A stretch of 64,000 bases of DNA from Dictyostelium discoideum (lineage: Eukaryota), in the NCBI GenBank assembly GCA_000004695.1, contig CM000153.2, forward strand, positions 448,001 through 512,000. Direction: 5' to 3'. Numbering within the stretch: the first letter of the stretch is position 1; each line of letters starts with the position of its first letter. This document shows positions 25,338-44,584 of the stretch, in pieces. The notes beneath the pieces are model-generated. The model was given only the letters and a program-made list of their open reading frames with translations. It was not told the origin of the DNA and searched no databases. The translations under genes were made by a program, and so were the position numbers.

Positions 25338-25424
25338 GTAAATATTATTTTCTAATTTTATAATTTTTTTTATATAATAAAATAAAGTTGCTAATAAATT
25401 TTTTTTTTTTAAAATAAATTATAG

Positions 25425-26380: not shown

Positions 26381-26619
26381 GTAAGTTTTATAATTCTATT
26401 ATTTTGTTTGTTTTTTTTTTTTAAAAAAAAAAAGTTTTAATGATGATACCAAAGAAGAGCCGTATTAAAAACTTTGATTAAAACCTCTTTTTCGAAATCA
26501 ATTTTTAATTGATATCTTTCCTGATTTCTTTTTTTTTTTTTTAAAAAAAAACTTTTTTATATTTTTTATAAAAAATAAAATTAATACTAATAATATTTTG
26601 TTAAATTTGAATATTATAG

Positions 26620-26925
<306 letters not shown>

Positions 26926-27139
26926 ATAATTTTGAACTAAATAAATACAAAATAATTTATTTTTATATACCACAATTTTTTATAAATTTTTTTTTTATTA
27001 TAATTATTATTTAATTACTATTTTTTAAATTATTAGTATTATATATTTATCCTTAAGTTTATATTGTCGACGAAATTTACACATCAGAATACATATAACT
27101 ATATATAAATATATATATATATAAATTTCATAATATATG

Positions 27140-27656
27140 ACAGATATTAATGTGTAATTTTATATTTTTTTTTTTTTTTTTTTATAATTAAATAAAAATA
27201 ATAAAAAGGGATTTTTTTTTTAACAGAATTCATAAAGTCCCTCAAATAAATTAATTTCTAAAATGTTATTCAGTATGTATTATTTAAATAAATAATAATA
27301 AATGAAATAAATAAAGAGAATTAAAAAAAAAATTTAAAAAAAAAAAAAAAAAAAATTATTTAGAATCATTAAAATCAATCAAGTATTAGCTCAGTCCAAA
27401 AGAATCAAATTTCTTCAATTTCAGTAGGAACCACCCAATATTTACAATAGAGATAGGAATTCAAGTTCCAAAATCAGTTGATGTGACTTATGGAATTCAA
27501 CCTGTAAAAAATATTGAATTGTCAGGTCTATAAATCTTCAAAAATTTATGATTTCACCAATAATTCATATTAATACTCAGGGAATATATACAAACATTTA
27601 ATATATATTAAATAAATATTTAATAAAATTCATTTTGAAATTTTAAAAAAATTAAA
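27140..27656 (+). repeat. dispersed repeat family R, copy A (long form without the upstream arm); unclassified
   Basis: Shares the conserved core AAAAAGGGATTTTTTTTTT(A)ACAGAATTCATAAAGTCCCTCAAATAAATTAATTTCTAAAATGTTATTCAGTATGTATTA and the downstream TTATTTAGAATCATTA(A/C)AATCAAT...GCTCAGTCCAAAAGAATCA...TTCTTCAATTTCAGTAGGAAC block with 28620-29345 and 42583-43160. Confidence 0.75.
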
Positions 27657-27829
27657 TGTTATTGATTGATTTGAAGTAACATGTCAATCATCATTTTCAA
27701 ATGAATTACCATATGAATTACCATATCGATCAAAAAATATAATTTAAATTCAAATGACATTGTTAGTTGTATTGGTGAGGGTTTTAGAAATAGTAATGAA
27801 ATAAGTATGATCATTTGAAATCAGTCAAT

Positions 27830-28090
27830 AACATTTGGTGATGAAGTTAATATATAACCATTAGTTTTTAATAAACCACCTTTTAATTTTGGAATACTAT
27901 TTACACTTGATGGAATTGGTGGATATGTAATTTGAAAATTTATTTGACCAATAATCACAACAACCTATTTGAGCATTTAATTTTCATGAGAGTTGATCTG
28001 AATAATTTGAAAATCTACAGAAATAATATCATTTGGATCAATAAAATTATTATCAATTTTAACAGAAACAAAAATCGGTCACCATTCAAA
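27830..28090 (-). pseudogene. tgr-like receptor gene fragment (matches 39895-40160 of the intact + gene, about 85% identity); pseudogene remnant
   Basis: Reverse complement reads ...GTTTCTGTTAAAATTGATAATAATTTTATTGATCCAAATGATATTATTTC...GGTTGTTGTGATTATTGGTCAAAT...ACATATCCACCAATTCCA...CCAAAATTAAAAGGTGGTTTATTAA..., with indels and in-frame stops relative to the 39311-41776 gene. Confidence 0.7.
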
Positions 28091-28288
28091 ATAAAAATAA
28101 TAAATTATGATTATAAAAAAAAATATATAGCAGATACAAAATTTTAATTTTTTTATTAATAATGACCTAGGGTTTCACCAAAGAACATCGACTTCTCTTA
28201 TCTCCATAATGGAAAAAAGTTTTATCAGATGATCGATATTCTTTGAATAAAAATAATTATTATAAAAGTAGTAATTATTTAAATAGTA

Positions 28289-28384
<96 letters not shown>

Positions 28385-28619
28385 TAATAATAAATAATTA
28401 TTTTAATAATGATAATAATATTTTAAACAATTGAAATATATGCATTACCTTTTTTTTTTTTAATTTTTTTGAAATTTCATAGGATTTTATTCAAATAAAA
28501 GTAAATAACAAAAACGAATAAAAAAAAAAAATTTAATTCAAAAATATTCAGGGGATAGAAAATAAATAAAAGTAAAAAAAAAAAGATTCGATAAACCCAC
28601 CATCGCCGCATAAAATTAC

Positions 28620-28831
28620 TTTTCACCACCCTTAAAAAATATTGTGCAATTTTTTAAATACATAAATTACCCGTTCATTTTATTATATGAAAAAAAAGGG
28701 GTTTTATATATTTTTTATTTAAAAGATTTAAATATATGATATATACACAACCAACAATAAACAACCAACATACGGCCGATATTATTGTGCCATTTTAAAT
28801 TTTGTTTTTATTTTATTTTCATAATTAAATC

Positions 28832-28874
<43 letters not shown>

Positions 28875-29345
28875 ATATAAAAAGGATTTTTTTTTTTACA
28901 GAATTCAACAAGTTCCTCAATAAATTAAATTCTAAAATGTTATTCAGTATGTATTTTTAATTGAATAAATTAATAAAGAGAACTAACAATTTAAAAAAAA
29001 ATTATTTAGAATCATTACAATCAATCTCAAGGGTCAGCTCAGCCCAAAAGAATCAGATTTCTTCAATTTCAGTAGGAACTAATCAATCAAATAATAATGC
29101 AGCACTTGATGTTAATATTGGAATTCCAGGTTTATTAAATATTGAAATTTCAACCACTCAATAAATTTTCAAAGATTTATGATTTCACTAATAATTCATT
29201 AAAATCCTCATGGAATATATGAAAATTAAATATATATTAAATAAATATTTAATTATATTCATTTTGAATTTTAAAAAAAAAAATTAAAGGTTCAAAATAA
29301 GTTTATTTTGAGAAAAATATGGTGTTTTTTTTTTTAAAAAAATAA
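28620..29345 (+). repeat. dispersed repeat family R, copy B (full-length form of about 0.7 kb)
   Basis: Collinear with 42583-43160 apart from a block of about 250 bp absent from that copy, and with the core of 27140-27656. The ORF at 28961-29164 is not conserved between copies. Confidence 0.8.
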
Positions 29346-29585
29346 TATATTTTAAATTTTAAAGTAATTCGACTTAATTCTAGTTTTAATTATTCATTAT
29401 TATTTTAAATTTTTTTTTTTTTTTTATTATTAAATCACTTTGTTTTTGTTCATTTTTTTATTTTTAAGTATAAATTTTTTTTTTTTTTTTTTTTTAAGGT
29501 TAGGATTAGAAATTAATTTGGGAAAAGGAATTTAAAGAGAATTCTGTTAAATTTAATGAATTGTACTTTTTGTGCTATTCGAGTA

Positions 29586-29631
<46 letters not shown>
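29586..29631. repeat. (TAC)n microsatellite, about 15 copies, non-coding
   Basis: tactactac... run. Confidence 0.9.
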
Positions 29632-29632
<1 letters not shown>

Positions 29633-29761
29633 ATTTGCATGTTTGGTTATTAAATTCAATGTTTCAATAACCAATAGCAACACCAACAACAATAAATAAA
29701 AAAATTATTAAATTATATTTATTTGTTAATTTATTTATTTATTTATTTATTTGAAATGAAT

Positions 29762-30106
29762 AATGTGAATTGTTGAAATTGATAATAATAGATTTTGAAA
29801 TATATTTCTCGTGTCAGAGTATTGATGAGAATCATCAGATTGAGTTAAATATTGGAATACTTTTGATACCACTTTTACCATTGGTTGTAACATTGATAAA
29901 TATCATTTCACCATTTTTAATATTATTAAATGTATTAATCATTGTATCATTAATATACTTTAAATATCACTACTATAATTATTACCACTACCACTACCAA
30001 TACTACCAAGTATTATAACTTTATCAATTAGATAATAGAAATCATTACCAATATTGGTTAAAATACCTCCTTGTTTTAAATAAATTATACTAGTTTGATT
30101 AATTGG
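29762..30106 (-). pseudogene. tgr-like receptor gene 3'-end fragment (matches 41383-41776 of the intact + gene, about 90% identity, including the C-terminal hydrophobic tail codons); pseudogene remnant
   Basis: Reverse complement reads ...CAATTAATCAAACTAGTATAATT...AAAACAAGGAGGTATTTTAACCAATATTGGTAATGATTTCTATTATC...GGTGAAATGATATTTATCAATGTTACAACCAATGGTAAAAGTGGTAT...CAAAATCTATTATTATCAATTT.... Its order and orientation relative to the 27830-28090 fragment are scrambled. Confidence 0.75.
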
Positions 30107-31362
30107 CAGTGATTTATAGATTATACAGAATGTTCAATGGAAAAAAAACATATGTTCTTTACTACAAAATTGATGGTTTTTTGTAACATCTGCTGGTCTG
30201 TTACAGAGTGATTCAATGATTTCTTTATACCATGTTGTTATTGAGGTTGAGTTAATTGGTAGAGATAGAGTGGTGAGGAAGGTGGTGTCATATTATCTAA
30301 TTTGTGGTGTAGTTGTTGCAGTTGTTGTCGTTGTTATTGTTTATTGATTAATAGTTGCTATTGTTCATTATTATCGATATTATTATTATTGTTATTATTA
30401 TTATCTTCTGACATTTTATAAACTGAATTATTTAATCTTATTGAATAAAATTTGTTATTGATTTTAAATTTTGTTTTATTACTGAGATTATTTACTATTA
30501 CTATTTAAATTTTTATTATTATTGACTTTATTATTAATTATTGTTAGTATAATAAATGTTTTGAATATTGTAGATGATGTGAATTCCCCCTTTATTAATA
30601 TTTTACAAAAAATAATAATGGTTATAATTAATAAAATTTATAATAGTATTATTTTTTATTATATTTTTTAAGATTTCTTTTATTTTAATAAAATAATAAA
30701 ATATTTAAATTTTTTAATATATTTTATAATTTTTTTTTTTTTCTATTTTTTTAAAGATAATTAAAGTTACATTTTTATAATAAATCTTTTAAAAATTTAA
30801 ACCAGATTAATGCAATTTATAACATTCTTATGTATTATCTTATTATAATAATTAAAAACGTATTTGGTTTTAAAAATTTCATCATTAAAGTGGCCAAAAA
30901 CTTAATAAAATATTAAAATATAATAATTTATCTTTAATTTTAATAAAAGTTGTAAGAGTTTTTTTTTAAATTAACAAATATTATTTAAAAATAAGATAAT
31001 AATTAAAAAAAAAATCTTTAAAAAATATAAAAAAAAAATAGTGTGCTTCTTCATTTATTCATTTTTTTATTTTTTTTATTTATTTTCACACGAAACCCCA
31101 TTAGTATAAATTTTAAATTAAACAGTTTGGATGTTATTGATTAGCAATCATTAGGTTGGATTTTAGACAACAAATCCAAATGCCTTGAAATTGCGATATC
31201 ATCTTGAAAGCCACCATAAAATTATTATTTTAATTAGAATGTGAAACACGGTTAATATTTTTTTTTTTTTTTTTTTATTTTTAAATTTAAAAAAAGAAAT
31301 CCATATTTTTAATTTTTGAATAATTTATAATTTATTTTTATAATTTTTATTCATATTTTATT

Positions 31363-31623
31363 TTTTACATACTTTTTAACACAACCAATAATATATCCTT
31401 TTTAATGATGGTGGTGAAAATCACTATACCATACAAATATATAAAATTCTTTTGAATATAAAAGGGGTCTTTTTTTTTTTTATAATTTTTTAAATTATTT
31501 TTTTTAATTTTTATTTAAATAAATTATGTATTTTTTAACACAACCACTAATATATCCTTTTTAATTGATGGTGGTGAAAATCACTATATAAATTTATATA
31601 TTTTTTTTTTTTGAATATAAAAG

Positions 31624-31640
<17 letters not shown>
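31363..31640 (+). repeat. direct repeat of a roughly 110-bp unit (31363-31480 and 31530-31640): TTTTTAACACAACCA(A/C)TAATATATCCTTTTTAAT(T)GATGGTGGTGAAAATCACTATA...TTTTGAATATAAAAGGG
   Basis: Two near-identical copies about 170 bp apart in non-coding DNA upstream of the kinase gene. Confidence 0.7.
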
Positions 31641-31658
<18 letters not shown>

Positions 31659-32041
31659 TGGTGTTTGCATAGAGGAGATCTAAGATAGTAGGGGTAATTT
31701 TCAATAGTAATTGATAGTGCGCTCAAAATAATAATGACCTGTTTTCTCTTCTCCCTTTTTTTTTTTACTTGTACATTTTTTTTTTTTTATTTGTTTTTTT
31801 TTTAAATTTATTTTTAAATATATTTAATATTAATTTTCTTTTTTTAATTATAATTTTTTAATTATTTTTTTTTTTTAATTATATTTTTTAACTATTATTA
31901 TTTTAATTATTTTTTTTTTTACATTTAATTTTTCTATTTTTAATTATATTTGTAATTATTATTTTTATTATTTTTCTTTTTTTCTATAAATAAAATATTA
32001 AAATTATTAAAATTTTTAAAACCTTTTTTTAAAACAAAGCC

Positions 32042-32244
32042 ATGACATCTCAAAATTGGAAAAATTGTTTTAATAAAAAAGCAATTGAGGTTATTGAAAT
32101 TCATAGATCTCAGGAAACAATCACTGTTGAAACAGTAAATAATGAAGATAAAATCAAGAATAATATTTCAAAACCCAAAATTAAAGTACATAAAAAACCA
32201 ATAATTAAATCAATTTCAAAGTTAAAATTACAACCAAAATTTTC
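32042..32244 (+). CDS. ankyrin-repeat protein kinase (+ paralog), exon 1
   Basis: ATG at 32042; GTAAGT donor at 32245 (phase 2). A 302-nt AT-rich intron containing an (ATT)n run; TATAAAAG acceptor at 32539-32546. Confidence 0.6.
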
Positions 32245-32364
32245 GTAAGTAAAAACATTTTAAATTCTTTTTTTTTTTTTTTTTTTTTCATGAAAAAAAA
32301 CATTTTAAATTCTTTTTTTTTTTAATTTTTTTTTATTTATTTTTTTTTTATTATTATTACTATA

Positions 32365-32397
<33 letters not shown>

Positions 32398-32401
32398 TTT
32401 A

Positions 32402-32439
<38 letters not shown>

Positions 32440-32496
32440 TTATTATTATTTGTATTATTTTTTAATAAAAAAATAATTTAAAAAATTCTAATATTT

Positions 32497-32543
<47 letters not shown>

Positions 32544-32546
32544 AAG

Positions 32547-33684
32547 GAGATACAATGATATTATTGATTATTCAATTGATTTCAATTGTAATAAAAATTA
32601 TTTCTTAAAACAAGATAAAGTTAGTGGTAATACTTTTATTCATGTTTTTTGTGAAAAAAGAGAATCAAAAATAAATTTAGAATCTGATATTGAAAATTTA
32701 AAATGTTTGGGAAAGGAAACGATTGAAGCAAGGAATAATAATAAGGAAATTGCACTATTTTCAACTTTAAAAAACCAATGCCTTGGTTTAAAAATAATGC
32801 ATGAATTAATTTCAAGAAATGTTATGTTCATTGATGATAATGGTAAAGATGAGTTACTAGTAAAATGTTTAGAAGAGGGTAGAGTTGATATGGTGAAATA
32901 TTTAATTACCGTTGATATTAATTTGATCTCAAAATTAAAGAGAATATGCCAAATTACCCAATTAAGCCTAGAAACACTTCAATTTGTCGAATTAATTAAT
33001 TCAGAATATGAAAAAATCGTAGAAATTGGTTTAAAATCTGCAGGTAGAGAATACATTAAATTGTTTTTCATTCAATTTATTTTGGGTAATTTTTCAAAAG
33101 AATCAATCATCCAAACAATTGATGAATATAAATTACCACCAATTCCAAAAGAAATTGAAGATTTTTTCTTTGTTTATAATTATCAAATGTGTGACTTTGT
33201 TAAATTAACTGAAATCAAACCACGTTACCTCAATGAAATTTCTAAAATAAATATCTATCCAATTGGTCAAGTCTCCATTGAAAGAAGAAATGAACTCGGT
33301 CGTGGTGGTAATGGTACCGTTTATTCAGGTGTATTAAAAGAGATTGATAGTCAAGGTAATGAAATTTCAATACCAGTTGCAATCAAAATACCAACTCAAT
33401 TCTATAAATCAAAATTGGTTGAAGTATATAAAGAGTTGGCTATTCATCAAAAGATTAATGGTATTTGTGGTCCAAAGTTATTTGGATGCGTAAAGTTAAA
33501 TGTTGGATTTGGTATTATAATTGAAAGATTTGATTGTAGTTTACATGACTATATTCAAAATAATAATATCGATTTCGATTTATTTTTTGAATTGGCTCTT
33601 AAAATGGTTATAACAATTAGAAATCTACACAAATGTCATTTAAATGAAATATTCCATCGTGATATTAAACCACACAACTGGTTA
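32547..33684 (+). CDS. ankyrin-repeat protein kinase (+ paralog), exon 2: ankyrin-like repeats plus kinase subdomains I-VIb
   Basis: Ankyrin-like DDNGKDELLVKCLEEGRVDMVKYLI; glycine loop GRGGNGTVYSG; VAIK; HRDIKPHNWL; GTATGT donor at 33685. The ORF-track M at 32707 is a TTG codon, not a real start. Confidence 0.8.
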
Positions 33685-33772
33685 GTATGTATATTATTTT
33701 AATACTTTTTCATTTTTCATTTTAATATTATAATTTAATTTAACTCTTTGTATTTTTATTTATTTATTTTAG

Positions 33773-34423
33773 GTTAAAAAAACTAAAGATGAATTGGTGG
33801 TCGTTTTATCTGATTTTGGTTTATCAAGAGAGAATAGTGAAACAAATGAAAATACTCTTCAGAAATATAGAGGAACATCAGTATTTATTCCACCAGAATT
33901 AAATGATAATATCTTATATAATGAAAAATCAGATATATACTCTTTGGGTGTATCATTTATGATGTTGCTTTATAAAGTTGTTTATGGCAAAATGGAAAAC
34001 CCATTTTATGAATTCAAAATTTCAAAAATGGAATACTTCAAAACAGTTGTTGCTTTAGAGAACTTTTTAGTACCAATTGTACCAACATTTTTACCTGATT
34101 CTTTTAAAGAGTTCTTGTTCTCAACAATGAATAGAATCTATACATGTCGTCCAAATTCTGAAGAATGTGTAGAAAGACTCATAACACTAAAGACTGAATA
34201 TGAAAATGATAAAACCAAATGGCAAGTAAATAGTGCTATTATACAAAAAGAAAAATCATTACTCACTGATTCAATAATTTCACAACAATTGAAATTAATG
34301 AACCAAGTTAAAAAATTTGTTCAAGAAAATGATAAATTCGTTTTTTTGAAGAAAACAAAATTATTTTTTTCAGAATCTGAAATTAAACAATATCTTTTGT
34401 CAATAATAAAATGTCAAGAATGA
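33773..34423 (+). CDS. ankyrin-repeat protein kinase (+ paralog), exon 3: kinase subdomains VII-XI
   Basis: TTTTAG acceptor at 33767-33772. VVVLSDFGLSRE (DFG), GTSVFIPPE (APE-like). Stop at 34421-34423. Confidence 0.8.
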   Translation, partial: VKKTKDELVVVLSDFGLSRENSETNENTLQKYRGTSVFIPPELNDNILYNEKSDIYSLGVSFMMLLYKVVYGKMENPFYEFKISKMEYFKTVVALENFLVPIVPTFLPDSFKEFLFSTMNRIYTCRPNSEECVERLITLKTEYENDKTKWQVNSAIIQKEKSLLTDSIISQQLKLMNQVKKFVQENDKFVFLKKTKLFFSESEIKQYLLSIIKCQE

Positions 34424-34864
34424 AAACTTTAAATAAAATTTTTTAAAAAATAAAGAAAAGAATTAATAATTAGATTATTATTGTTTTAATTTTTTTATTT
34501 TTTTTTTTTTTTTTATAATTAACTGTTATCAAATTCTGGTTTTTCAAAATAAAATAATTCTTTCTTTTTATACAATTGCTTTTAATTCATCTATAAATCT
34601 AATTTGTGATCTAGTTGATTCTAGTTTTAAATAGCTAAATTGGTAATCTAAGAAAGTTGATTCTTTATTTTTTTTTATTTTTTTATTGAACACCAAAGTT
34701 ATATCTTTTTTTTATTTTTTGAGTTTTATCTTTTAACTTTTTTTATTTTTTGAATTTCTTTTTTTTGTAATATTTTATATTGGAATGCTAATAATTATGA
34801 ATTACTTCTTTAAAATATTTTAAAGAAGAGCAATATTTTATTTTATTATTATTATTATATTAAT

Positions 34865-35650
34865 TATTTTTTTTATTATTTGATGAGCAAGCCACATCAT
34901 TGTTATTATTATTACTAATATTATTATTATTGGTTTTATTATTATTTGATGAGCAAGCTACATCATTGTTTTTATTATTACTAATTATTATTATTGATTT
35001 TATTATTATTATTTGATGAGCAAGCAACATCACCGATAGTATTATTGTTGTTATTATTACTACTATTAATATTATTGGTTTTATTATTATTAATTGATGA
35101 ACGAGCTAAATCATTATTGGTTTTATTATTATTTGATGAGCAAGCTACATCATTTTTATTATTATTACTAATATTATTATTATTATTGATTTTATTATTA
35201 TTTGATGAGCAAGCTACATCTTTGTTATTATTATTACTAATATTATTATTATTGATTTTATTATTATTTGACGAGCAAGCTACATCATTGTTTTTATTAT
35301 TACTAATATTATTATTATTGATTTTATTATTATTTGATGAGCAAGCAACATCATTGTTATTATTATTACTAATATTATTATTATTGGTTTTATTATTAAT
35401 TGATGAGCAAGCTACATTATTGTTATTATTATTACTAATATTATTATTATTATAATTGGTTTTATTATTATTTGATGAGCAAGCTACATCATTGTTATTA
35501 TTATTACTAATATTATTATTATTGATTTTATTATTTGATGAAAAAGCAACATCGCCGATAGTATTATTGTTGTTATTATTACTATTAATGATAGTGTTAC
35601 TGTTACTATCACTACTATTATTAATTGATGAACAAGCTAAATCATTGTTG
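34865..35650. repeat. tandem array of about 12 copies of a 66-72-bp unit (TTATTATT...TGATGAGCAAGCTACATCATTGTTATTATTATTACTAATATTATTATTATTGATT); 34984-35650 encodes the cytoplasmic tail repeats, 34865-34980 lies 3' of the stop codon
   Basis: The motif TGATGAGCAAGC (or 1-2-nt variants) recurs at 34881, 34947, 35017, 35097, 35133, 35199, 35269, 35337, 35401, 35473, 35537 and 35627. On the minus strand it encodes (DVACSSNNNK.NNNNISNNNNN)n. Confidence 0.85.
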
Positions 35651-38291
35651 TTATTATTTTTATTTTTGGAATTTCTATTTCTAAGGTTATTATTTTTTGG
35701 AATTCTTAATGGATCTTCAGCCATTATAATATTGTCATACATATCCAAAAAAATCATTCTTTGATTATTATAAACTTCCCTCGTTTGTAAATATTCATCT
35801 CCTTTTGTAGAATGATTGTTTTCTACATTTTCAATTATTCTTTCCCTTTTAATTGACATAAAGAAACGTTCTGGTATTTTAAAGAAAATAATTAAAAAAA
35901 TAAATAATAGTGGTGCAAAAATTATTGTAACTAATGATATTACAATTTTTTTCCAATCTACTCGAGAACTTTCTTCTTGAGATTTGGTGTTATTGTTGAT
36001 ATATATATATTCTTTTTCTGAAATATTTTGGAATATTAAATTATACCTAGAGATATGAACTATTTGATTTGAAGTGACATTAATTTCAAATGTTGAGTTT
36101 ATTCTAGGTAAAAAGAAATTTAGCAATATATCATTTGCAATTGCACAACCTATTTCTGTTGAAAAACTATATGATATTGTGCATCTTTTCTGGCCATCAA
36201 TTATGAGACTTGTTTTTAGTGGATAAAAATTGAAACCGGATAGAGCTAATACCCAATGGTCCTTTTGATAATTGCTTATTGTGCCAACTTTATTTATTGT
36301 TGGTCCATTAAATGTTATATTAAAACTAATTGATTGATCCATTGAATTAATAATGCATTGTTCAACATGAGGACAAAAGTAATCTTCACTTTGACATGTG
36401 GAATCACATGAAAAAGAAGAATGATTTAAATATGTACAACCAAATTTATAATTACCACATTCAAGAGAAACATTTTGTTTTGAATGAAAATTTTCTCCAT
36501 CTATAAACACTATACTACCATTATTATCAAATGGTTTTGAAATTGCACCCTTAATGGTAGGTTTAATGGTTAATTCATATGGATCAGAAATAATACCACA
36601 ACAACAGATTGTAATTAGGTCACTTGTAAAATATGGTTCCTTTTTGGTTGTAATTTCATTGGAACTTATTTTTATTGGAGAAAGTGATTGGTTCGAGAAT
36701 GTAATAAATGTATTATTATAAAAGCCATAATTGTTAAATTCACCAGTACAGATTATGAATTCATCCTTTGTGTAACATGATTCTATAATTGGTTTTTTAT
36801 AATTAAATGTTGATTGGTATGATTTATTTTCAAAATTTATATTGTAACCTTTTTTACCACAACCTGGCACAATGAAAAACGAATAATCTAAATCATTTGA
36901 ATTTTTACCAATGAGTGTTCCCGTTGATTTAAATTCATCACCAAAATCTGAATAGATTGATAGTATCGGATTTTCTTTATTTTCATCATAACTTGAATTA
37001 AAAAATTTAACAATGCAATTTGATCCATTTACCATTGGTTGAGTAACAAACTTAGTTATGAATGATAAGCCAATAAAATAACTGTTTGATTGTTTTTCAT
37101 AAGATTTCACCGATATATTAATATAGGACATTGCTTCTGGAATGGTGAATGACATAACAGTCTCATTATCATTAATTTGAAGGTTTTGTAAACTAATTGG
37201 GATTTTATCATTAAATATAGTTACTGATCCTACTTCACCAAGACATTGGCCATATATTGTCAAGACACCATTGGAAATACTATAAGATGAAATAAGCGTT
37301 GAGTCATAGTTGAAATATATTTTGTTTTGGTTGGTAATACCATCTATGTTTACGGTAACTGGTAAGTTGTTATCTAAAATTCTATGAGCCATATAACAAG
37401 TAATATTATTTGGTGAAAGTGTAATAATTGAACATGGGTAATCTCCTATTTTAACCTCTGCTATAATAATTGAAGAATTCGATGTTAATCTTTCTCCATT
37501 GATATTAATTGTAGCATTTTTGTTTCTTGGAATACTATTAATTGAATTTAATACTGGAGGATATACTAAATCCATTTTATTTGAAGGTACTTTACTTGCA
37601 ATTAATTGAATTGTAAATGAAGTACAAAAGAATTCTGAATATTCAAAAATAAATTCAATATATTCATGATCATTTTTAATAATTTGTTCATTTTTAATTT
37701 TTTGATTGTTGATTAAAATTTCTTTTGGATACATTTCAGTACAGAAATTAGAGCCAATTAGTGTCACAGTTTTTTTATTTATTTCTACTTTTTCTATATA
37801 TGGATTTTGGTATGATGAATTATAAACAAACGAAAGACCAAAAATTTTAAAAAATCCACAACCACTTGGAAAAATCATTAAATATTCAGAACCGTTTTTT
37901 CCATTTGGAGATATCAAAAAATCGATTTTTTCATAATCATTTTGGAAAAGAGCGTTCTGATTTGTTGTTAATAAAAAATATGTAATATTGGATTGAAAAC
38001 TACCTCCTTTAGTTTCTGGTTTTAATTCTGGTTCAAAAATTGGTAAGATATTTGAAAAAATCCCTGGAAACTGTATACCATCTGCTGTTTTTTTTTCAGT
38101 TTGTTCACTTCCGAAAGCATGAAATTTAAAATTGTTATCAGTAGTTAAATTACACATCCTTAAATCACCATCAATATTACAATTGTAGTTGTATTCAAAA
38201 ATATCTACATTTTTTTCTTTGAATATATATTTGGAAATGTAAGATTCATTTACTTGATAAAAAAGTGTAATATATTCTTTATCTATTATAT
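34981..38291 (-). CDS. tgr-like IPT/TIG-repeat transmembrane receptor (- paralog), exon 2: ectodomain, TM and repeat-rich cytoplasmic tail
   Basis: Paralogous to the 39136-41776 gene (ELKPETKGGSFQSNITYFLL versus EFKPKTRGGNTTLSGYYLEL; NPYIEKVEINKKTVTLIGSNF versus EPNIEKIDINQSFLDITGTNF). TM segment IVISLVTIIFAPLLFIFLIIFF, then a tail of about 330 aa built of roughly 24-aa repeats. TTTTTTTTACAG acceptor at 38292-38293 (minus). Confidence 0.85.
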
Positions 38292-38355
38292 CTGTAAAAA
38301 AAATTTAAAATTAATATTTTACTTTTAATATTGATTAATCTAATTAATTACATAC

Positions 38356-38413
38356 TCTCAAGAATTGAATATACTATTGTTATTAATAAAATTATTAACA
38401 AATAATATTTCAT
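38356..38413 (-). CDS. tgr-like receptor (- paralog), exon 1: signal peptide MKYYLLIILLITIVYSILE
   Basis: ATG at 38411-38413 (minus), GTATGT donor at 38350-38355 (minus), phase 1. Same intron phase and position as exon 1 of the + paralog. Confidence 0.65.
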
Positions 38414-38765
38414 TCTTGAATGTTTATCAAATTGTTTAATTAAGTATTGGGTTAATTATTTGCTACTTTTTTATTATTTTTTTGATTTTATTTTATTATT
38501 ATTTTTTTTTGTTTTTTAAAAATTAATACTTTTTTTATTTTATTTAATTTTTTTTTTTTTGTAAATTTAAAAATTAATGGTTTTATGATAATTTTAGATT
38601 AAAAAAATAATAATTATTATAATTTAATTCTTTTTCTTTGTGATTTAACCACAATTTTTTTTTAAAATCATCATTGGGTTGTTATTTTTTTTAATAATAA
38701 TAATTATTTTTATTTTCAAACCCATTTTTATATTTCACTTTTTTTGAATTTTTTTATTTTTAGAA

Positions 38766-38830
38766 AGGGGTACCTATATTTGGACTCATTGAGGGGTTTG
38801 AAATTGATTTACCCCATCCCACACACACTT
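38766..38830. promoter_or_regulatory. G-box / CA-element-like palindromic element in the shared divergent promoter: GGGGTACC...GAGGGGTTTGAAATTGATTTACCCCATCCCACACACAC
   Basis: GGGGT/ACCCC inverted arms followed by CCCACACACAC, the best non-AT motif in the 722-bp region between the two receptor ATGs (38413 and 39136). It resembles GBF-binding G-box/CAE sites of post-aggregative Dictyostelium promoters. Confidence 0.35.
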
Positions 38831-38961
38831 TTCTTTTTTTAATTTTGATTAAAAAAAATATAACTTTTTTAATTTTTAAAAAAAATTATATTATTATTAT
38901 TTTTTTTTTTTTTTATTTTTTTTATTTTTTTTTTTTTTTATATTTATTCTTATAATTATTA

Positions 38962-39075
<114 letters not shown>

Positions 39076-39135
39076 ATTACTATTATTTTTCTCAACAATT
39101 TTATAATTCTTTAAATTAGAAATCAATTATTTTAA

Positions 39136-39211
39136 ATGAAAATAATTTTAATTTCTTTACTTTTTTATTTATTTTCATTTGCTATTTCTTATGATGATGT
39201 CATTCCTTTGG
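39136..39211 (+). CDS. tgr-like IPT/TIG-repeat receptor (+ paralog), exon 1: signal peptide MKIILISLLFYLFSFAISYDDVIPLG
   Basis: ATG at 39136; GTAAAT donor at 39212 (phase 1); 73-nt intron; TTTTTTTAG acceptor at 39276-39284. Confidence 0.7.
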
Positions 39212-39284
39212 GTAAATTGTTTTTATCATTTTTTTCATATCTCTTTTTTTTAATTTATTAATTATTTATTAATTATTTTTTTAG

Positions 39285-41776
39285 GTTATGAAAGTCACAA
39301 TGATTCTCTTGTGATTAGATATCGTGAAAGAGAAAATTATTATACAAATATTTCATTTTTATGGAATGGTAAAAGTCGTTATGATATGAGTTTTAATTGT
39401 GTTTTAAATAATACAATTAGAACTTGTACTTTACCAGTGAAAGAATCTGATCATGCCCAAATGTATTCAGAGAAAATATCTGCATGTACAGAAAATAATG
39501 GTACTTTTAAAAGGTGTGGTTATGATGTTGAGTTATTTTATTTTCCAAGTCCATTTTTAATTTCAGAGTTTAAACCAAAAACACGAGGTGGAAATACAAC
39601 ATTAAGTGGTTATTATTTAGAGTTAAAAGAAAGAATTTATGTTCCATTTGAAAGTCACTATAAAGATGATCAGTTTTATTATGCTGTAGAAGTATATACA
39701 ATTCCAGGTAAGTTTCAATCAAAAACACCAGATAGAATAAATTTAGTTTTAAAAGTTTTTCCAGGTTGTGGATACAGAACAATTATTTGGGAGAATCGTG
39801 AAAGATTAAATTTTACATATCAAGAGCCAAACATTGAAAAAATTGATATTAATCAATCATTTCTTGATATAACTGGTACAAATTTCTACAATCAATCAAT
39901 TTTGGTTTCTGTTAAAATTGATAATAATATTATTGATCCAAATGATATTATTTCAGTTGATTTTGAAATTATTAAATTAAAATTTAATTATTCAGATCCA
40001 TTCTCATCAAAATTGAATGTTCAAGTCGGTTGTTGTGATTATTGGTCAAATCAATTTCAAATTACATATCCACCAATTCCAATAAGTTCAAATAGTATTC
40101 CAAAATTAAAAGGTGGTTTATTAATAATCAATGGTAATAGATTAACTTCATCACCATCATTATCTAATAATATTAATATTTCAGTAACAGTTGGTGATTC
40201 AATTTGTTCAATTGTTTCGTCATCTTCAAATGAAATTAAATGTAATTTACAACCAATATCAAATTCAACATTTAATAATTCATCACCAATTGCTGTATCA
40301 ATAAATGGGGTTGTAAATACAAATACATTATTATTAAATTATGATATTCCATATATTACAACATTCTCTCAAGTAAATGATGAAATTCATATAATTGGTG
40401 GTTGTTTTGGTAATATTAATTCAACTCAAATTCATATCAATGATAAACAAGTTTCTGGCCAAATTAAATCAATTAATAATGATGAAACAATTTTAATATT
40501 AAAAATACAAAATCAAATTTATAATTTCAATCTTTCAATCGAATCAAATTCAATCAAATCAAATGGAATCAATGTAGATGTAAAATTGTATGCAAGTATA
40601 AATGAAATTCCATTGGTTGCTAATAAATTAATTAATTTTACATTATTTTATGTAAATTCAAGTAATATTAATTTAATACCAACAATTAAAATAATTAATG
40701 AAAAATCAAATCAAACAAGTAAATCAATTTCAACCAATGTAAATGAAAGTGTTGTATCATGTTCATTTTTAATTGAAAATAATTGTGGTATTATTAATTA
40801 TGAAATTGAAATTGGTAATCAAATATATCAATCATCATTTTCATATGAATCACCATTGATTAATAAATGTAATTTAAATTCAAATGAAATTGTTACTTGT
40901 ATTTGTAAAGGTTTTGTAAATAAATATAATGAAACAAGTATTTTTATTTCAAATCAATCAATAGCCCTTAGTAAAGAAATTAATAATAGTAGTTATGAAT
41001 CAATATCATTTCAAATGAAAGATGAGTATAATATTCTTGGTGAATTGTATTTAAATGTATGTGGTTTATTATCAAATAAAGTAATTATTAATACATTTCC
41101 AATTTTTAAAAATGTATCGATTCCTAACTTGTTTGGTACAAATGGTGGTAATATCATTATTATTGGTAAATATTTAAATAATAATACAAATATTACAATT
41201 GAATGTAATGGTGAACAAATTATTATAGAAAAAGAATGTAAATTAAAAAATAGTAGTACATCATTAGAATGCAACATTAATTTAAATGGTCCAAATGATA
41301 AAACTTGTAAATTATTATTTAATAATGATAATAGTATAGTATCAACATTTAATTTAATATACAAATCACCATCAATTAATCAAACCAGTATAATTAATTT
41401 AAAACAAGGAGGTATTTTAACAATTATTGGTAATGATTTCTATTATCCAATTGATAAAGTTACAATAATTGGTAATGGTAATGGTAGTGGTAATAGTAGT
41501 AGTTTAAATTGTAATGAAGCAAAGTATATTAATGATACAATTATAACATGTTTTATTCAAGCAACTAATTATACATTTAATAATATTAAAAATGGTGAAA
41601 TGATATTTATCAATGTTTCAACCAATGGTAAAAGTGGTATATCAAAAGTATTCAAATATTTAACTCAATCTGATGATATCCATCAATACTCTGATGCTAG
41701 AAATATCTTTCAAAATCTATTATTATCAATTTTAATCATATTAATCATTTCATTATTATTCATTTCAAATCTTTAA
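39285..41776 (+). CDS. tgr-like IPT/TIG-repeat receptor (+ paralog), exon 2; C-terminal hydrophobic tail (GPI-signal-like or zero-tail TM)
   Basis: 830 codons; repeated IPT-like blocks (NIEKIDINQSFLDITGTNFYNQSILVSVKID..., PKLKGGLLIINGNRLTSSPSLSNNINISV...); ends NLLLSILIILIISLLFISNL-stop. The ORF-track M at 39311 is a GTG codon. Confidence 0.85.
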
Positions 41777-41845
41777 AAAAAAACCATAAATTAATAAATA
41801 AATACATTAATAGTTTAAAAATTTTTTTTTTTTTTATTTATAATT

Positions 41846-41881
<36 letters not shown>

Positions 41882-42582
41882 GTATTTGGAAATTCGATTA
41901 ATCCACTTAATAGATTGTTCGTTATTTATTTTTATCATTCGTTGTATTTTCGGATAGTGACCAGGTGGATGAATGGCAAAAAAGCACGACAATAAACAGA
42001 AATTTATAACTCTTTAATGATCATTTTCAAAACTATCAGATGCCCAGACTACAGCTTTTATTCTCGTGATTAATCAACAAAGTTATCAATACATTCTTTA
42101 ATTTCATCAATAAGTGATTTGGAAAACTTAATTTGTTTTCTTTTTTGGTTTACTCATATCTTTTTAATTTGATTATTTTGATTAATTTATGGTGAATTTG
42201 TCAATAATTTTGTTTATTATTGTTTCTGTTGCACCTAAGAACAAAAGTACAATTTATTGTGGGTAGTGATGATGATATTGTTGCAAATTAAATTTAGCAT
42301 AAAAAATATTAAATAATTTTTTCTCTAATACTTTCTTTTAAATTATTATTATTATCATTATTTATTGTTGTGGGGAATTTTTACAGCAAAATACACTATG
42401 TATAGGTAGTGAAAAAATTCATTAAAAATTTTTTTTTTTTTAATATTAAAAACTATTAATTTAACCAAAACAATAAAAAACTATTTATAAACAGTTATCC
42501 AATTGTTTTAAGATTAAATAACAATTTACTTTCAAATTTGCGCCAAAATTTTTTTTAACACTTTAATGATGAAATTTTTACA

Positions 42583-42973
42583 TCCAACCACCCTCAAAAA
42601 ATATTGTATAATTATGATTTTTTTTTTTTAAATAGGAAAATTACCCATTCATTTTATTATGTGAGAAAAAGGGGTTTATTTTTTATTTTATTTAAAAGAT
42701 TTAAATATATGATATATACACATCCAACAATCAACAACCAGCAATATATATATAAATGGCAGATATTATCGTGCCAGTTTTTTAATTGTTTTTATTTTGT
42801 TTTCATAATTGAAGCATTAAAAAAAAAAAAAAAAAAAAATATATTTACAAAAAGGGATTTTTTTTTTTTTTCAGAATTCATTAGGTTCCTCAAATAAATT
42901 AATTTCTAAAATGTTATTCAGTATGTATTATTAAAATAAATAAATAATAAATGAACTATATAAACTAATAAAC

Positions 42974-43013
<40 letters not shown>

Positions 43014-43160
43014 ATTTAGAATCATTACAATCAATCTCAAGGGTTAGCTCAGTCCAAAAGAATCACATTTTGAAATTTTAAAAAAAAAAATTAAAGAGTT
43101 TGAAATAAGTTTATTTTGAGAAAAATGTGGTGTTTTTTTTTTAAAAAAAATATATTATTA
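42583..43160 (+). repeat. dispersed repeat family R, copy C (short form, lacks a block of about 250 bp), about 0.8 kb downstream of the + receptor gene
   Basis: CAACCACCCTCAAAAAATATTGT...GATTTAAATATATGATATATACACA...AAAAAGGGATTTTTTTTTTTTTCAGAATTCATTAGGTTCCTCAAATAAATTAATTTCTAAAATGTTATTCAGTATGTATTA...TTATTTAGAATCATTACAATCAATCTCAAGGGTTAGCTCAGTCCAAAAGAATCAC...AAGTTTATTTTGAGAAAAATGTGGTG. Confidence 0.8.
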
Positions 43161-43930
43161 TCTAATATTTTAAATTTTCAAGGAATTTTATTTAATTCTA
43201 TTTTTAATTATTCATTATTATTTAAAATAATTTTTAAAACAAAAACAAATAGAATTATATTTAATTCTATTTTTAATTATTATTATTATTTTTTTATTTT
43301 TATTTTTTTATTTTTATTTTTTTTATTTTTATTTTTTTATTTTTTTTTGGTTATCATATTATTCAAACCACTAAAAGTTCTTTCAATATCAATAGTTGAT
43401 TGTGACAATCAAACAGATCTTTTGAAGTTCACAATTCTTTAGGTAAAAAGCCTTTTTTTTTTTTTTTTTTTTCTTTCTTTGACCAATTCATTAATTACAA
43501 TTTTATTATTTGATTTATTTAATTTTTAATACTTATATATTTGAAATTGGATATTAAAAAAAAAAAAAAAAAAAAAAAGTAAAATTTAAACGTTTGAACA
43601 GAAAATAAATTAAGATCAAAATTAATAAATTAAAGTAAAAGTTTTTTTTTTTTTTTTATGAATAATTATTTTTAATTATTGGTATGAAATTACAATAGCA
43701 ATAATTAACTTAATTATTAATTGTTTAAAGATTTTATTTATTATTTAAAATAATTTATTAAAAGTTTTATTCTTTGTTTATCGATTAAAAGATATATTGT
43801 TGTTGCTTAATTAATTATTTGTGAAAATTTTAAGTTGATTGTGTGGTAGTATTGATAAATTGTATAATGAAATATTAATATTTTAATATTGGTGATTATT
43901 TATTGATCTGTAACAATAGGTGGAAATTCT

Positions 43931-44584
43931 TTATCTATCTTCATTAAAAGATTTGCATTTAATGAAATAACTTGAATAATCAAAACTTTCCAATTCTTGG
44001 ACATAATTATCGTGAGGATTTTGATTTAAATCAAAGTCTCGAATGTAATCCAACACATCAGATTTTATATAGTGATATTGATTTATCATTTGTTCATTGA
44101 GTAACGAGTAATCTTCATGTACTGATATTTCAGTATCCCATTTGGTTCTATCTGATTCATATTCCTCTTTACATTTTTGGATTTCTTCAATGCACTCTTT
44201 AATTGATGGTCTTCTTTCAGGCATTTTGCTCATCATTAAAAATAGCAATCTTTTTAATCGTGATGGTAAGTTGGGAGGGATAGTTGGAATTAAACCAGTA
44301 TTCTGAATAATGTTCAGGTTTTCGGGTTCATCTGCAATTTGGTATTCATGGTAAGGATGGACAAACTTGCCATATACGAGTTTGTAGGCCAATTGATACA
44401 AAGAAATACCAACAGAAAAGATATCAGATTGAGAAGAAAATAAAAATCCTTTATAGCACTCTGGTGCAATGTGTAGATTAGTTCCTCTTATTTGCTGTAA
44501 TGTACAACCGTTAGATTCAGTGTTCGATCTTGATAATCCAAAATCAGAAATAAATACTGTATGGTTTCCATCTATTGTCTTTAT
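43931..44584 (-). CDS. ankyrin-repeat protein kinase (- paralog), exon 3: kinase subdomains VII-XI
   Basis: TTTTATAG acceptor at 44585-44592 (minus). IKTIDGNHTVFISDFGLSRSN..., GTNLHIAPE. Stop at 43931-43933. Confidence 0.8.
   Translation of the reverse strand: MKTIDGNHTVFISDFGLSRSNTESNGCTLQQIRGTNLHIAPECYKGFLFSSQSDIFSVGISLYQLAYKLVYGKFVHPYHEYQIADEPENLNIIQNTGLIPTIPPNLPSRLKRLLFLMMSKMPERRPSIKECIEEIQKCKEEYESDRTKWDTEISVHEDYSLLNEQMINQYHYIKSDVLDYIRDFDLNQNPHDNYVQELESFDYSSYFIKCKSFNEDR

What the first reader, a model, noticed from the sequence alone, without database searches (positions are those of the whole stretch)
42583..43160. Unclassified dispersed repeat family R (3 copies in the window) with a deeply conserved roughly 80-bp core containing an ATG-TTA-TTC-A|GTATGT mini-exon-like motif
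The three copies lie at 27140-27656, 28620-29345 and 42583-43160, all on the + strand. They share the core GGGATTTTTTTTTT.CAGAATTCA...CCTCAAATAAATTAA(T/A)TTCTAAAATGTTATTCAGTATGTATT at near identity, and a second block TTATTTAGAATCATTA.AATCAAT...GCTCAG.CCAAAAGAATCA. The intervening sequence is more diverged, and one copy lacks about 250 bp.

No ORF is conserved between copies, so it is not an obvious transposon coding region. The core reads like a promoter/5' leader with a start codon followed at once by a consensus splice donor. It could be a repeated 5' gene segment, a non-coding RNA gene family, or a non-autonomous element.
Basis: seen in the sequence. Interest (0 to 1): 0.55.

Follow-up and report, generated by a model that had tools for sequence, protein, structure and literature searches.

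The report
Small stalk gene plus two decayed copies
The three "repeats" are one annotated, stalk-expressed Dictyostelium gene for a 54-residue protein (DDB_G0283295) and two broken duplicates of it, so this is an ordinary small gene family and not a transposon or RNA gene.

Summary
Three same-strand copies share an exact 26-mer and a second block, where chance expects none.

The "no conserved ORF" reading fails once the GT..AG intron is removed. Copy 2 then reads ATGTTATTCA, a 63-nt intron and a 155-nt second exon. This is exactly the annotated D. discoideum AX4 chromosome 4 protein DDB_G0283295 (54 aa).

Copy 1 has a 2-bp deletion that gives a stop at codon 12, plus further indels. Copy 3 lacks 204 bp and encodes 23 residues. 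Both are decayed duplicates.

The roughly 80-bp core is the family's TATA box, T-run, CAGAATT start region, about 35-nt leader, 10-nt first-exon ORF and splice donor. The same layout occurs in 13 paralogues elsewhere on chromosome 4, all with intact 57-aa ORFs under purifying selection (pN/pS 0.21).

Published work calls these "small proteins (57-59 aa), prestalk specific". Published RNA-seq gives DDB_G0283295 about 9,000 TPM in mature stalk.

I found no terminal repeats, target-site duplications, tRNA genes or Rfam hits.

The family resembles hssA/sigN genes (13-nt first-exon ORF) but fails Pfam's threshold for them.

Verdict: already known and ordinary, low interest.

The parts
28616..28873 (+). 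Upstream (promoter-distal) region of copy 2 (DDB_G0283295). It is shared with copy 3 and ends in a long poly-A tract.
   Evidence: c2 and c3 are 84.5% identical over the alignable columns. The BLASTN homology starts at 28625 / 42587.
28874..28936 (+). Core promoter and 5' leader of copy 2. TATATAAAAAGG (TATA box) is at 28874-28885, the T-run at 28887-28897, and CAGAATTCA (inferred transcription start region) at 28899-28907. The leader runs to 28936.
   Evidence: Landmarks were located. The same order (poly-A, TATAAAAAG, T-run, CAGAATT, about 35-nt leader) is seen in 13 paralogues. The TSS position is inferred from the classical Dictyostelium TATA/oligo-dT promoter layout and was not measured.
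28937..28946 (+). Exon 1 coding part of DDB_G0283295: ATGTTATTCA. It encodes Met-Leu-Phe plus the first base of Lys (10 nt; the intron is phase 1).
   Evidence: The sequence is identical in all 16 family copies examined.
28947..29009 (+). Intron of DDB_G0283295, 63 nt, GTATGT...TTATTTAG, 87% A+T.
   Evidence: Removing it gives a product identical to XP_639146.2 / Q54RA1.
29010..29164 (+). Exon 2 coding part of DDB_G0283295, including the TAA stop. The spliced product is MLFKSLQSISRVSSAQKNQISSISVGTNQSNNNAALDVNIGIPGLLNIEISTTQ (54 aa).
   Evidence: Exact-sequence look-up: hypothetical protein DDB_G0283295, D. discoideum AX4, on a 5,450,249-bp contig. ORF end as.
29165..29417 (+). 3' UTR and downstream region of copy 2. 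AATAAA occurs at 29160 and 29240. The region is shared with c1 up to about 29292 and with c3 from 29260 to 29417.
27140..27660 (+). Copy 1, a decayed paralogue (pseudogene). The TATA-like element is at 27197-27210 and CAGAATTCA at 27224-27232. Exon 1 is 27263-27272, the intron 27273-27363 (91 nt), and the exon-2 remnant starts at 27364. A 2-bp deletion puts TAG at 27387-27389, which is codon 12. Further 10-bp insertions and a 3-bp deletion follow.
   Evidence: Spliced translation is MLFKSLKSIKY*. Indels are visible in alignment A1. Later exon-2 similarity lies in other frames.
42583..43235 (+). Copy 3 (the coordinates of the finding), a truncated paralogue. The TATA-like element is at 42842-42856 and CAGAATTCA at 42872-42880. 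Exon 1 is 42911-42920, the intron 42921-43019 (99 nt), and exon 2 starts at 43020. The deletion junction lies between 43065 and 43066, and the stop is at 43079-43081.
   Evidence: Spliced translation is MLFKSLQSISRVSSVQKNHILKF* (23 aa). It lacks the equivalent of c2 29056-29259, which is 204 bp. Upstream and downstream homology to c2 is shown.
27678..28075 (.). Two scrambled fragments of a tgr (Tiger-family) gene between copies 1 and 2. 27678-27852 matches 40822-40985 on the + strand (74%). 27836-28075 matches 40156-39899 inverted (84%).
   Evidence: BLASTN and tblastn. These mark the area as a patchwork of local segmental duplication.
29688..30134 (-). Inverted fragment of the 3' end of the tgr gene, 79% identical to 41838-41344. 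It lies just downstream of copy 2.
   Evidence: tblastn of the Tgr ORF, residues 679-797, gives 45% identity.
39311..41776 (+). TgrO1-like / IPT-TIG gene upstream of copy 3. It is the source, or a paralogue of the source, of the fragments next to copies 1 and 2.
   Evidence: Pfam PF24612 Ig_TgrO1 (1.2e-26) and PF01833 TIG.

Best explanation
The 'repeat family R' is a small protein-coding gene family, not a mobile element. Each unit is a complete two-exon gene.

The unit layout runs as follows:
- a poly-A tract;
- a TATA box (TATAAAAAG);
- an oligo-T run;
- a CAGAATT start region;
- a roughly 35-nt leader;
- a 10-nt coding first exon (ATG TTA TTC A);
- a short A/T-rich GT..AG intron in phase 1;
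- a roughly 155-165-nt second exon and a 3' UTR.

Copy 2 (28937-29164, spliced) is the annotated D. discoideum AX4 chromosome 4 gene DDB_G0283295. It encodes a 54-residue Ser/Asn/Gln-rich protein. Published RNA-seq shows the gene is prestalk-enriched and extremely abundant in mature stalk cells.

Copies 1 and 3 are local duplicates of the same gene. Both keep the promoter, mini-exon and splice sites but have lost the reading frame. c1 has a 2-bp deletion giving a stop at codon 12, plus more indels. c3 has a 204-bp deletion leaving 23 codons.

The duplicates arose by local segmental duplication and rearrangement, which also scattered pieces of the neighbouring tgr gene.

The conserved 80-bp core is the gene's core promoter, 5' UTR, first exon and donor. 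It looks like an island because the flanks are poly-A/T tracts of variable length.

Shown here:
- identity to the annotated protein;
- family-wide conservation of the layout;
- purifying selection on the ORF in paralogues;
- the disrupting lesions in c1 and c3;
- absence of transposon hallmarks.

Taken from the literature: the expression pattern.

Inferred:
- the exact transcription start;
- that c1 and c3 are non-functional;
- the duplication mechanism;
- the biochemical role of the peptide. It is unknown, and I take it to be a terminal stalk-cell product, like its prestalk paralogues.
For: - The spliced c2 product is an exact match to EAL65788.2 / XP_639146.2 / Q54RA1, DDB_G0283295.
- Paralogues of 57-65 aa were found by phmmer and hmmsearch. 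In D. discoideum these are DDB_G0283465/493/503/505/507/509/511/517, 0281189/191/195 and 0281615. One is from Acytostelium subglobosum.
- A paralogue locus (L001) and a 12-gene tandem array (L002, about 870-bp period) carry the identical ATGTTATTCA|GTA(T/A)GT. They have introns of 79-201 nt, intact 57-aa ORFs and the same TATA, T-run, CAGAATT order.
- Pooled pN/pS among 13 paralogues is 0.21. Variable sites by codon position are 12, 5 and 27.
- The lesions in c1 and c3 are shown.
- Unit ends have no TIR longer than 9 nt and no TSD longer than 4 nt. There are no tRNA genes in the window and no Rfam match at E<=1 in 26500-44000.
- tgr fragments lie beside c1 and c2.
- PMC3640940 Table 3 lists G0283465 and G0283501-519 as 'Small proteins (57-59 aa) (prestalk specific)'.
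- PMC6198379 supplementary file 5 gives DDB_G0283295 as prestalk 89.4, prespore 9.5, stalk 9064 TPM, cup 0.08, spore 2.0 and vegetative 7.1.
Against: - Only one of the three window copies has an intact ORF, so within the window alone coding constraint cannot be shown.
- The c2 protein is shorter (54 against 57 aa). Its C-terminal third has diverged from the hydrophobic tail of its paralogues.
- The RNA-seq value could include multi-mapped reads from c1 and c3.
- The TSS is not measured.
- I could not read dictyBase to see whether c1 and c3 are already annotated as pseudogenes.
Confidence: 0.93

Rival explanations
1. A non-autonomous transposable element or dispersed repeat (thug/DDT-S/MITE-like) that happens to carry a promoter-like core.
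For: There are three similar units of 0.5-0.8 kb, no long unspliced ORF, and one copy with an internal deletion. The window is from a genome known to be rich in such elements (general knowledge).
Against: - There are no terminal inverted repeats or target-site duplications.
- Unit boundaries are ragged and differ between copies.
- All copies lie within 16 kb and are interleaved with fragments of the neighbouring tgr gene.
- Elsewhere the family is a head-to-tail gene array with intact ORFs under purifying selection.
- Copy 2 is an annotated, expressed gene.
- No tRNA genes are nearby, as TRE elements would have.
Confidence: 0.02
2. A family of non-coding RNA genes, in which the ATG and donor are incidental and the conserved core is the RNA or its upstream control element.
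For: Two of the three window copies cannot encode the protein, yet they keep the core at about 90% identity. For the related hssA gene, a review of earlier work reports that frame-shifted constructs still suppress a culmination defect. That implies activity at the RNA level (PMC6198379).
Against: - No Rfam family matches, even at E<=1.
- Thirteen paralogues keep an intact 57-codon ORF. Changes are mostly at third positions and pN/pS is 0.21.
- The core is no better conserved than other unique segments of the copies. No constraint specific to c1 or c3 is therefore needed.
Confidence: 0.04
3. A repeated 5' gene segment only: a shared promoter and first-exon cassette attached to different downstream genes.
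For: The mini-exon and leader are the most uniform part across all 16 copies. The exon 1 ORF is identical in every copy.
Against: Homology in every copy continues through the intron into exon 2 and the 3' UTR. The downstream exon is the same gene in all copies. No case was seen of the cassette joined to an unrelated exon.
Confidence: 0.01

Closest known systems
D. discoideum 'small proteins (57-59 aa), prestalk specific': the DDB_G0283501-0283519 array and DDB_G0283465 on chromosome 4, and DDB_G0281189/191/195 on chromosome 3 (Galardi-Castilla et al. 2013, PMC3640940)
   Same: - N-terminal MLFKSLQSI..., and the QKNQIS, SQSNNNAAL and IPGLL blocks. Identity to the copy 2 protein is 50-63%.
- Identical 10-nt first-exon ORF and phase-1 intron.
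- The same TATA, T-run, CAGAATT promoter core.
- Expression in the prestalk/stalk lineage.
   Different: - The window gene encodes 54 aa, not 57-59.
- Its C-terminus (DVNIGIPGLLNIEISTTQ) has lost the hydrophobic AALVVIPGLLTAAAVAHI tail.
- It peaks in mature stalk (9064 TPM). Array members such as DDB_G0283503 peak in prestalk/slug (prestalk 9590, stalk 227).
- It sits apart from the array, with two decayed copies beside it.
hssA/2C/7E/sigN family (Pfam PF05710 'Coiled'; about 96 genes; Vicente et al. 2008, PMC2257962; Kin et al. 2018, PMC6198379)
   Same: - Very small proteins.
- A two-exon gene with a tiny first-exon ORF and a phase-1 intron right after the M-x-(L/I)-(F/L) start.
- Clustered duplicated genes.
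- Prestalk/stalk/cup expression.
- A sub-threshold Pfam match of residues 2-35 to profile positions 3-36 in 8 of 13 members. The one-residue offset equals the 3-nt difference in first-exon length.
- An hssA-type gene read here shows ATGACAATTTT(T)AG|GTAATT.
   Different: - The first-exon ORF is 10 nt, not 13.
- There is no Gly/Cys-rich C-terminal half, and no Cys at all.
- The PF05710 score of 19.0 bits is below the 21.4 gathering cut-off.
- An exhaustive profile search did not reach hssA/sigN proteins.
- hhalign to one bona fide member gave only 6.6% probability.
- The 2013 paper states that the 57-59-aa group shows no significant similarity to hssA.
Dictyostelium non-autonomous transposons (thug-S/T, DDT-S and similar)
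   Same: Sub-kilobase, A/T-rich, multi-copy units without a long unspliced ORF, with internally deleted copies.
   Different: - No TIRs or TSDs were found.
- The copies are local or tandem and not dispersed.
- The unit is a transcribed, spliced protein-coding gene.

Membership tests
MLFKSL small prestalk/stalk protein family (DDB_G02835xx / 02811xx group) | Conserved protein blocks: MLFKSLxSI, QKNQI, SQSNNNAAL and I(P/H)xxL | tested here: met
   Alignments A2 and A4 show 23 invariant columns among 7 D. discoideum members, including c2. phmmer E-values are 3e-9 to 3e-2, and profile E-values 1e-22 to 1e-29.
MLFKSL small prestalk/stalk protein family (DDB_G02835xx / 02811xx group) | 10-nt first-exon ORF ATGTTATTCA followed by GTA(T/A)GT and a short A/T-rich phase-1 intron | tested here: met
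   This is identical in c1, c2, c3, L001 and 12 genes of L002. Introns are 63-201 nt.
MLFKSL small prestalk/stalk protein family (DDB_G02835xx / 02811xx group) | Core promoter order: poly-A, TATAAAAAG, T-run, CAGAATT, about 35-nt leader | tested here: met
   Right-anchored upstream sequences of 16 copies show it. The TATA box is degenerate in c1 (AATAATAAAAAGGG) and c3 (TATTTACAAAAAGGG).
MLFKSL small prestalk/stalk protein family (DDB_G02835xx / 02811xx group) | 57-59 residues with a hydrophobic C-terminal tail | tested here: not met
   c2 encodes 54 aa ending NIGIPGLLNIEISTTQ. It has a 3-residue gap and a polar tail. c1 and c3 are truncated to 11 and 23 codons.
MLFKSL small prestalk/stalk protein family (DDB_G02835xx / 02811xx group) | Developmental expression in the prestalk/stalk lineage | not testable with these tools
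   Published data only. DDB_G0283295 is at prestalk 89 against prespore 9.5, and stalk 9064 TPM (PMC6198379 suppl. 5). Paralogues are called prestalk specific in PMC3640940.
hssA/2C/7E/sigN family (PF05710) | Match to Pfam PF05710 at or above the gathering score (21.4 bits) | tested here: not met
   The best score is 19.0 bits, E=0.0026, for P0001. Eight of 13 members give sub-threshold hits, and only over the N-terminal 35 residues.
hssA/2C/7E/sigN family (PF05710) | [quoted passage not shown] | tested here: not met
   The first-exon ORF is 10 nt. The phase (1) is the same, and the position is the same once the one-residue offset of the Pfam alignment is taken into account. This is a resemblance, not identity.
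hssA/2C/7E/sigN family (PF05710) | Ser/Gly/Cys-rich protein of about 75-95 aa | tested here: not met
   The c2 protein has no Cys and 3 Gly in 54 aa. Compare the bona fide member P0022.
hssA/2C/7E/sigN family (PF05710) | Detectable homology by profile search | tested here: inconclusive
   An exhaustive hmmsearch with the family profile found only its own members and one Acytostelium protein. hhalign against P0022 gave probability 6.6% over 31 columns.
Transposable element (any class) | Defined termini (TIR or LTR) and target-site duplications | tested here: not met
   The longest end-to-end inverted match is 8-9 nt of A/T-rich sequence. The longest shared flank word is 4 nt.
Transposable element (any class) | Similarity to a curated Dictyostelium TE consensus (DIRS, TRE, DDT, thug, Skipper, DGLT) | not testable with these tools
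   No Dictyostelium repeat library is available here. Exact identity to an annotated cellular gene makes a match unlikely.
Known non-coding RNA family | Match to an Rfam covariance model | tested here: not met
   There were 0 matches at E<=1 in 26500-44000 on both strands.

The most novel reading that the evidence does not exclude
The two decayed copies (c1, c3) are not inert. They keep the promoter, leader, mini-exon and both splice sites. They could be transcribed in stalk cells as spliced non-coding or micropeptide RNAs that modulate the parent gene or its paralogues. This would echo the reported RNA-level activity of frame-shifted hssA constructs.
Probability: 0.06. Interest if true: 0.4.

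Novelty: already known. Interest (0 to 1): 0.12.

Why it matters
It matters little beyond housekeeping. The finding re-discovers an annotated gene (DDB_G0283295) of a described, functionally uncharacterised family of tiny prestalk/stalk proteins.

Three points are useful:
- Genes with mini first exons of 10-13 nt look like ORF-less repeats to anyone, or any pipeline, reading unspliced sequence. In a newer assembly only 3 of 12 array genes were called, and one of those was a merged model.
- The window holds two decayed copies of the gene. These could confuse read mapping for one of the most abundant stalk transcripts.
- The shared intron phase and position, and the N-terminal motif, link this 10-nt-exon family to the large hssA/sigN family. 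That supports a common origin which sequence statistics alone do not establish.

Tried and rejected
- Whole-window repeat finding was swamped by A/T low-complexity families and did not report the three units. I replaced it with pattern searches and BLASTN.
- Exact-protein look-ups for the AX4 loci of P0001, P0010, P0012 and a neighbouring 534-aa ORF found nothing on record. I therefore could not obtain the orthologous locus in a second strain.
- A literature search on '0283295' only hit DOI strings. PMC9117722 supplements do not list the gene.
- The 90% cluster that contains the 54-aa protein has a 448-aa representative with no similarity to it. This is a clustering artefact and I ignored it.
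- A single-sequence hhalign to an hssA-type protein was too weak to decide superfamily membership. That seed sequence was recalled from memory and served only to retrieve a real PF05710 member.
- The sigma-70 promoter and terminator scanner was not used, because it does not apply to a eukaryote.
- An older 94-aa model (P0007) that splices copy 1 to copy 2 was considered and rejected. It has been superseded by the current 54-aa version, and it requires reading through the decayed copy.

Full report
**1. The observation**

The window is A/T-rich, with 14-31% G+C per 2 kb, and is from Dictyostelium discoideum (see section 2).

All are on the + strand. No match appeared in 100 shuffles, even with three mismatches allowed. 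The second block occurs three times as well.

BLASTN gives these homology extents:
- c1: 27190-27660, with weaker homology from about 27140.
- c2: 28625-29417.
- c3: 42587-43235.

No further copies are present in the window, by DNA pattern or by tblastn.

The copy with the internal gap is c3. It lacks the equivalent of c2 29056-29259, which is 204 bp.

Identity by segment:

| Segment | Identity |
|---|---|
| Core (T-run to donor) | 89-92% |
| Proximal exon 2 | 87-94% |
| 3' region | 87-93% |
| c2-c3 upstream region | 84.5% |

The core is therefore not an island of special conservation. It stands out because poly-A and poly-T tracts of variable length flank it.

**2. What it is**

I removed the GT..AG interval that follows the ATG. 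In c2 this joins ATGTTATTCA (28937-28946) to 29010-29164. The product is a 54-residue protein, MLFKSLQSISRVSSAQKNQISSISVGTNQSNNNAALDVNIGIPGLLNIEISTTQ.

An exact-sequence look-up finds this protein as EAL65788.2 / XP_639146.2 / Q54RA1. It is "hypothetical protein DDB_G0283295", Dictyostelium discoideum AX4, on a contig of 5,450,249 bp, which is chromosome 4.

The same operation on the other two copies gives truncated products:
- c1 gives MLFKSLKSIKY*. A 2-bp deletion creates TAG at 27387-27389. Further 10-bp insertions and a 3-bp deletion follow.
- c3 gives MLFKSLQSISRVSSVQKNHILKF*, because of the 204-bp deletion.

So the window holds one intact gene and two decayed duplicates.

**3. The family**

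phmmer, a profile search and an exhaustive profile search recover paralogues of 57-65 aa:
- On chromosome 4: DDB_G0283465, 0283493, 0283503, 0283505/0283511, 0283507, 0283509 and 0283517.
- On chromosome 3: DDB_G0281189, 0281191, 0281195 and 0281615.
- One protein from Acytostelium subglobosum.

The family is therefore older than the genus.

DNA for two paralogous loci was obtained from another D. discoideum assembly, GCA_054883475.1. L001 carries DDB_G0283465. L002 carries a head-to-tail array of 12 genes spaced about 870 bp apart.

All 13 of these genes have the identical ATGTTATTCA followed by GTA(T/A)GT. Their introns are 79-201 nt. All have intact 57-codon ORFs.

Upstream of the ATG they share one order of elements: a poly-A tract, (C)TATAAAAAG, a T-run of 10-20, (A)ACAGAATT, and a roughly 35-nt leader. 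This is the classical Dictyostelium core-promoter layout of a TATA box followed by an oligo-dT stretch ahead of the start site. That statement rests on established knowledge, and the start site itself was not measured here.

Among the 13 paralogues, pooled pN/pS is 0.21. Variable sites fall 12, 5 and 27 at codon positions 1, 2 and 3. The family is therefore under selection as protein-coding sequence.

**4. Expression and literature**

Galardi-Castilla et al. 2013 (PMC3640940) list G0283465 and G0283501-519 as "Small proteins (57-59 aa) (prestalk specific)". They report that these genes are mis-expressed in mef2A- structures. They place G0281189/191/195 among "hssA-related genes".

Kin et al. 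2018 (PMC6198379, supplementary file 5) give these values for DDB_G0283295:
- 0.5-13 over 0-24 h of development;
- prespore 9.5 and prestalk 89.4;
- cup 0.08, spore 2.0, stalk 9064 TPM and vegetative 7.1.

The array gene DDB_G0283503 instead peaks in prestalk cells (9590), with 227 in stalk.

The gene at copy 2 is therefore transcribed, and strongly so, late in stalk cells. The caveat is that reads from c1 and c3 could be mis-assigned to it.

No paper in the library discusses DDB_G0283295 in its main text.

**5. Relation to hssA/sigN**

The hssA/2C/7E/sigN family has about 96 genes. [quoted passage not shown] They are expressed in prestalk, stalk or cup cells (PMC2257962; PMC6198379).

Points of resemblance:
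- The window family has a 10-nt first-exon ORF in the same phase.
- Pfam PF05710, the hssA-type model, aligns residues 2-35 of the window protein to profile positions 3-36. The score is 19.0 bits against a gathering score of 21.4. Eight of 13 members give such sub-threshold hits.
- The one-residue offset is exactly the 3-nt difference in first-exon length. The intron would therefore sit in the homologous codon.
- An hssA-type gene read in D. dimigraforme shows ATGACAATTTT(T)AG|GTAATT followed by exon 2 CCTCAATTTCATCAATAGGT.

Points against membership:
- The exhaustive profile search did not reach hssA/sigN proteins.
- hhalign to that single member gave 6.6% probability.
- The window protein lacks the Gly/Cys-rich half.
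- The 2013 paper states that the 57-59-aa group shows no significant similarity to hssA.

I therefore call it a sister family that works like hssA/sigN genes. I do not call it a demonstrated member.

**6. Rivals**

*Transposon.*
- The unit ends have no inverted repeat longer than 9 nt and no flanking direct repeat longer than 4 nt.
- Boundaries are ragged between copies.
- There are no tRNA genes in the window.
- Elsewhere the family is a tandem gene array.
- Pieces of the neighbouring TgrO1-like gene (39311-41776) lie at 27678-28075 and 29688-30134, in mixed orientations. This points to local segmental duplication and rearrangement, not transposition.

*Non-coding RNA.* There is no Rfam match at E<=1, and the paralogues show clear coding constraint.

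*5' cassette only.* Homology continues through exon 2 and the 3' UTR in every copy.

A residual possibility is that c1 and c3 are transcribed relics with an RNA-level role. It cannot be excluded here. Nothing requires it, because their cores are no better conserved than the rest of the units.

**7. Verdict**

The mini-exon and promoter reading is right. The reading as a dispersed repeat, mobile element or ncRNA is wrong.

The feature is an already annotated, expressed member of a described small-protein gene family, together with two decayed local duplicates. Novelty: already known. Interest: low.

Noticed in passing
window 36199-38259 (-) and 39311-41776 (+); fragments at 27678-28075 and 29688-30134: There are two divergently oriented Tgr (Tiger, IPT/TIG) family genes, 28% identical to each other. 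Scrambled pseudogene fragments of the second one lie interleaved with copies 1 and 2 of the small gene. The region is a patchwork of local duplications.
   Followed up: partly
L002 6543-16300 (GCA_054883475.1, CM142510.1 around 4.87-4.89 Mb): This is a twelve-gene head-to-tail array of the MLFKSL family with a period of about 870 bp. Only three gene calls are recorded there, two of 57 aa and one merged 123-aa model. Pipelines therefore miss or mis-join genes with 10-nt first exons.
   Followed up: partly
window 27263-29164: An older 94-aa model (P0007, MetaClust) splices the first exon and part of exon 2 of decayed copy 1 onto copy 2. The current record (version .2) is the 54-aa protein.
   Followed up: partly
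window 34843-35553: A 66-nt tandem repeat with 10.9 copies and 79% matches. On the minus strand it reads as 22-residue Asn-rich repeats (for example NNISNNNNNDVACSSNNNK), probably within a coding region.
   Followed up: no
L003 6397-6410 (Dictyostelium dimigraforme, JBTAPM010000036.1): An hssA-type (PF05710) gene has ATGACAATTTTTAG before the donor, which is 14 nt where 13 nt are expected (one extra T). The frame is broken and the annotated model uses a spurious upstream exon. This is either a pseudogene or a homopolymer error.
   Followed up: no
protein cluster of P0001: The 90%-identity cluster holding the 54-aa protein has a 448-aa representative from metagenomes. That representative shows no BLASTP similarity to the 54-aa protein. 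This is a clustering artefact in the database.
   Followed up: yes
window 31324-31650 and 29586-29632: There is a local tandem duplication of about 170 bp at 80% identity (31324-31491 / 31479-31650). There is also a perfect (TAC)15 microsatellite in the long A/T-rich intergenic stretch downstream of copy 2.
   Followed up: no
window 25160-26925 (+): Exons of an aldehyde dehydrogenase family gene (Pfam Aldedh, 2e-62), probably delta-1-pyrroline-5-carboxylate dehydrogenase. It ends about 200 bp upstream of decayed copy 1.
   Followed up: no
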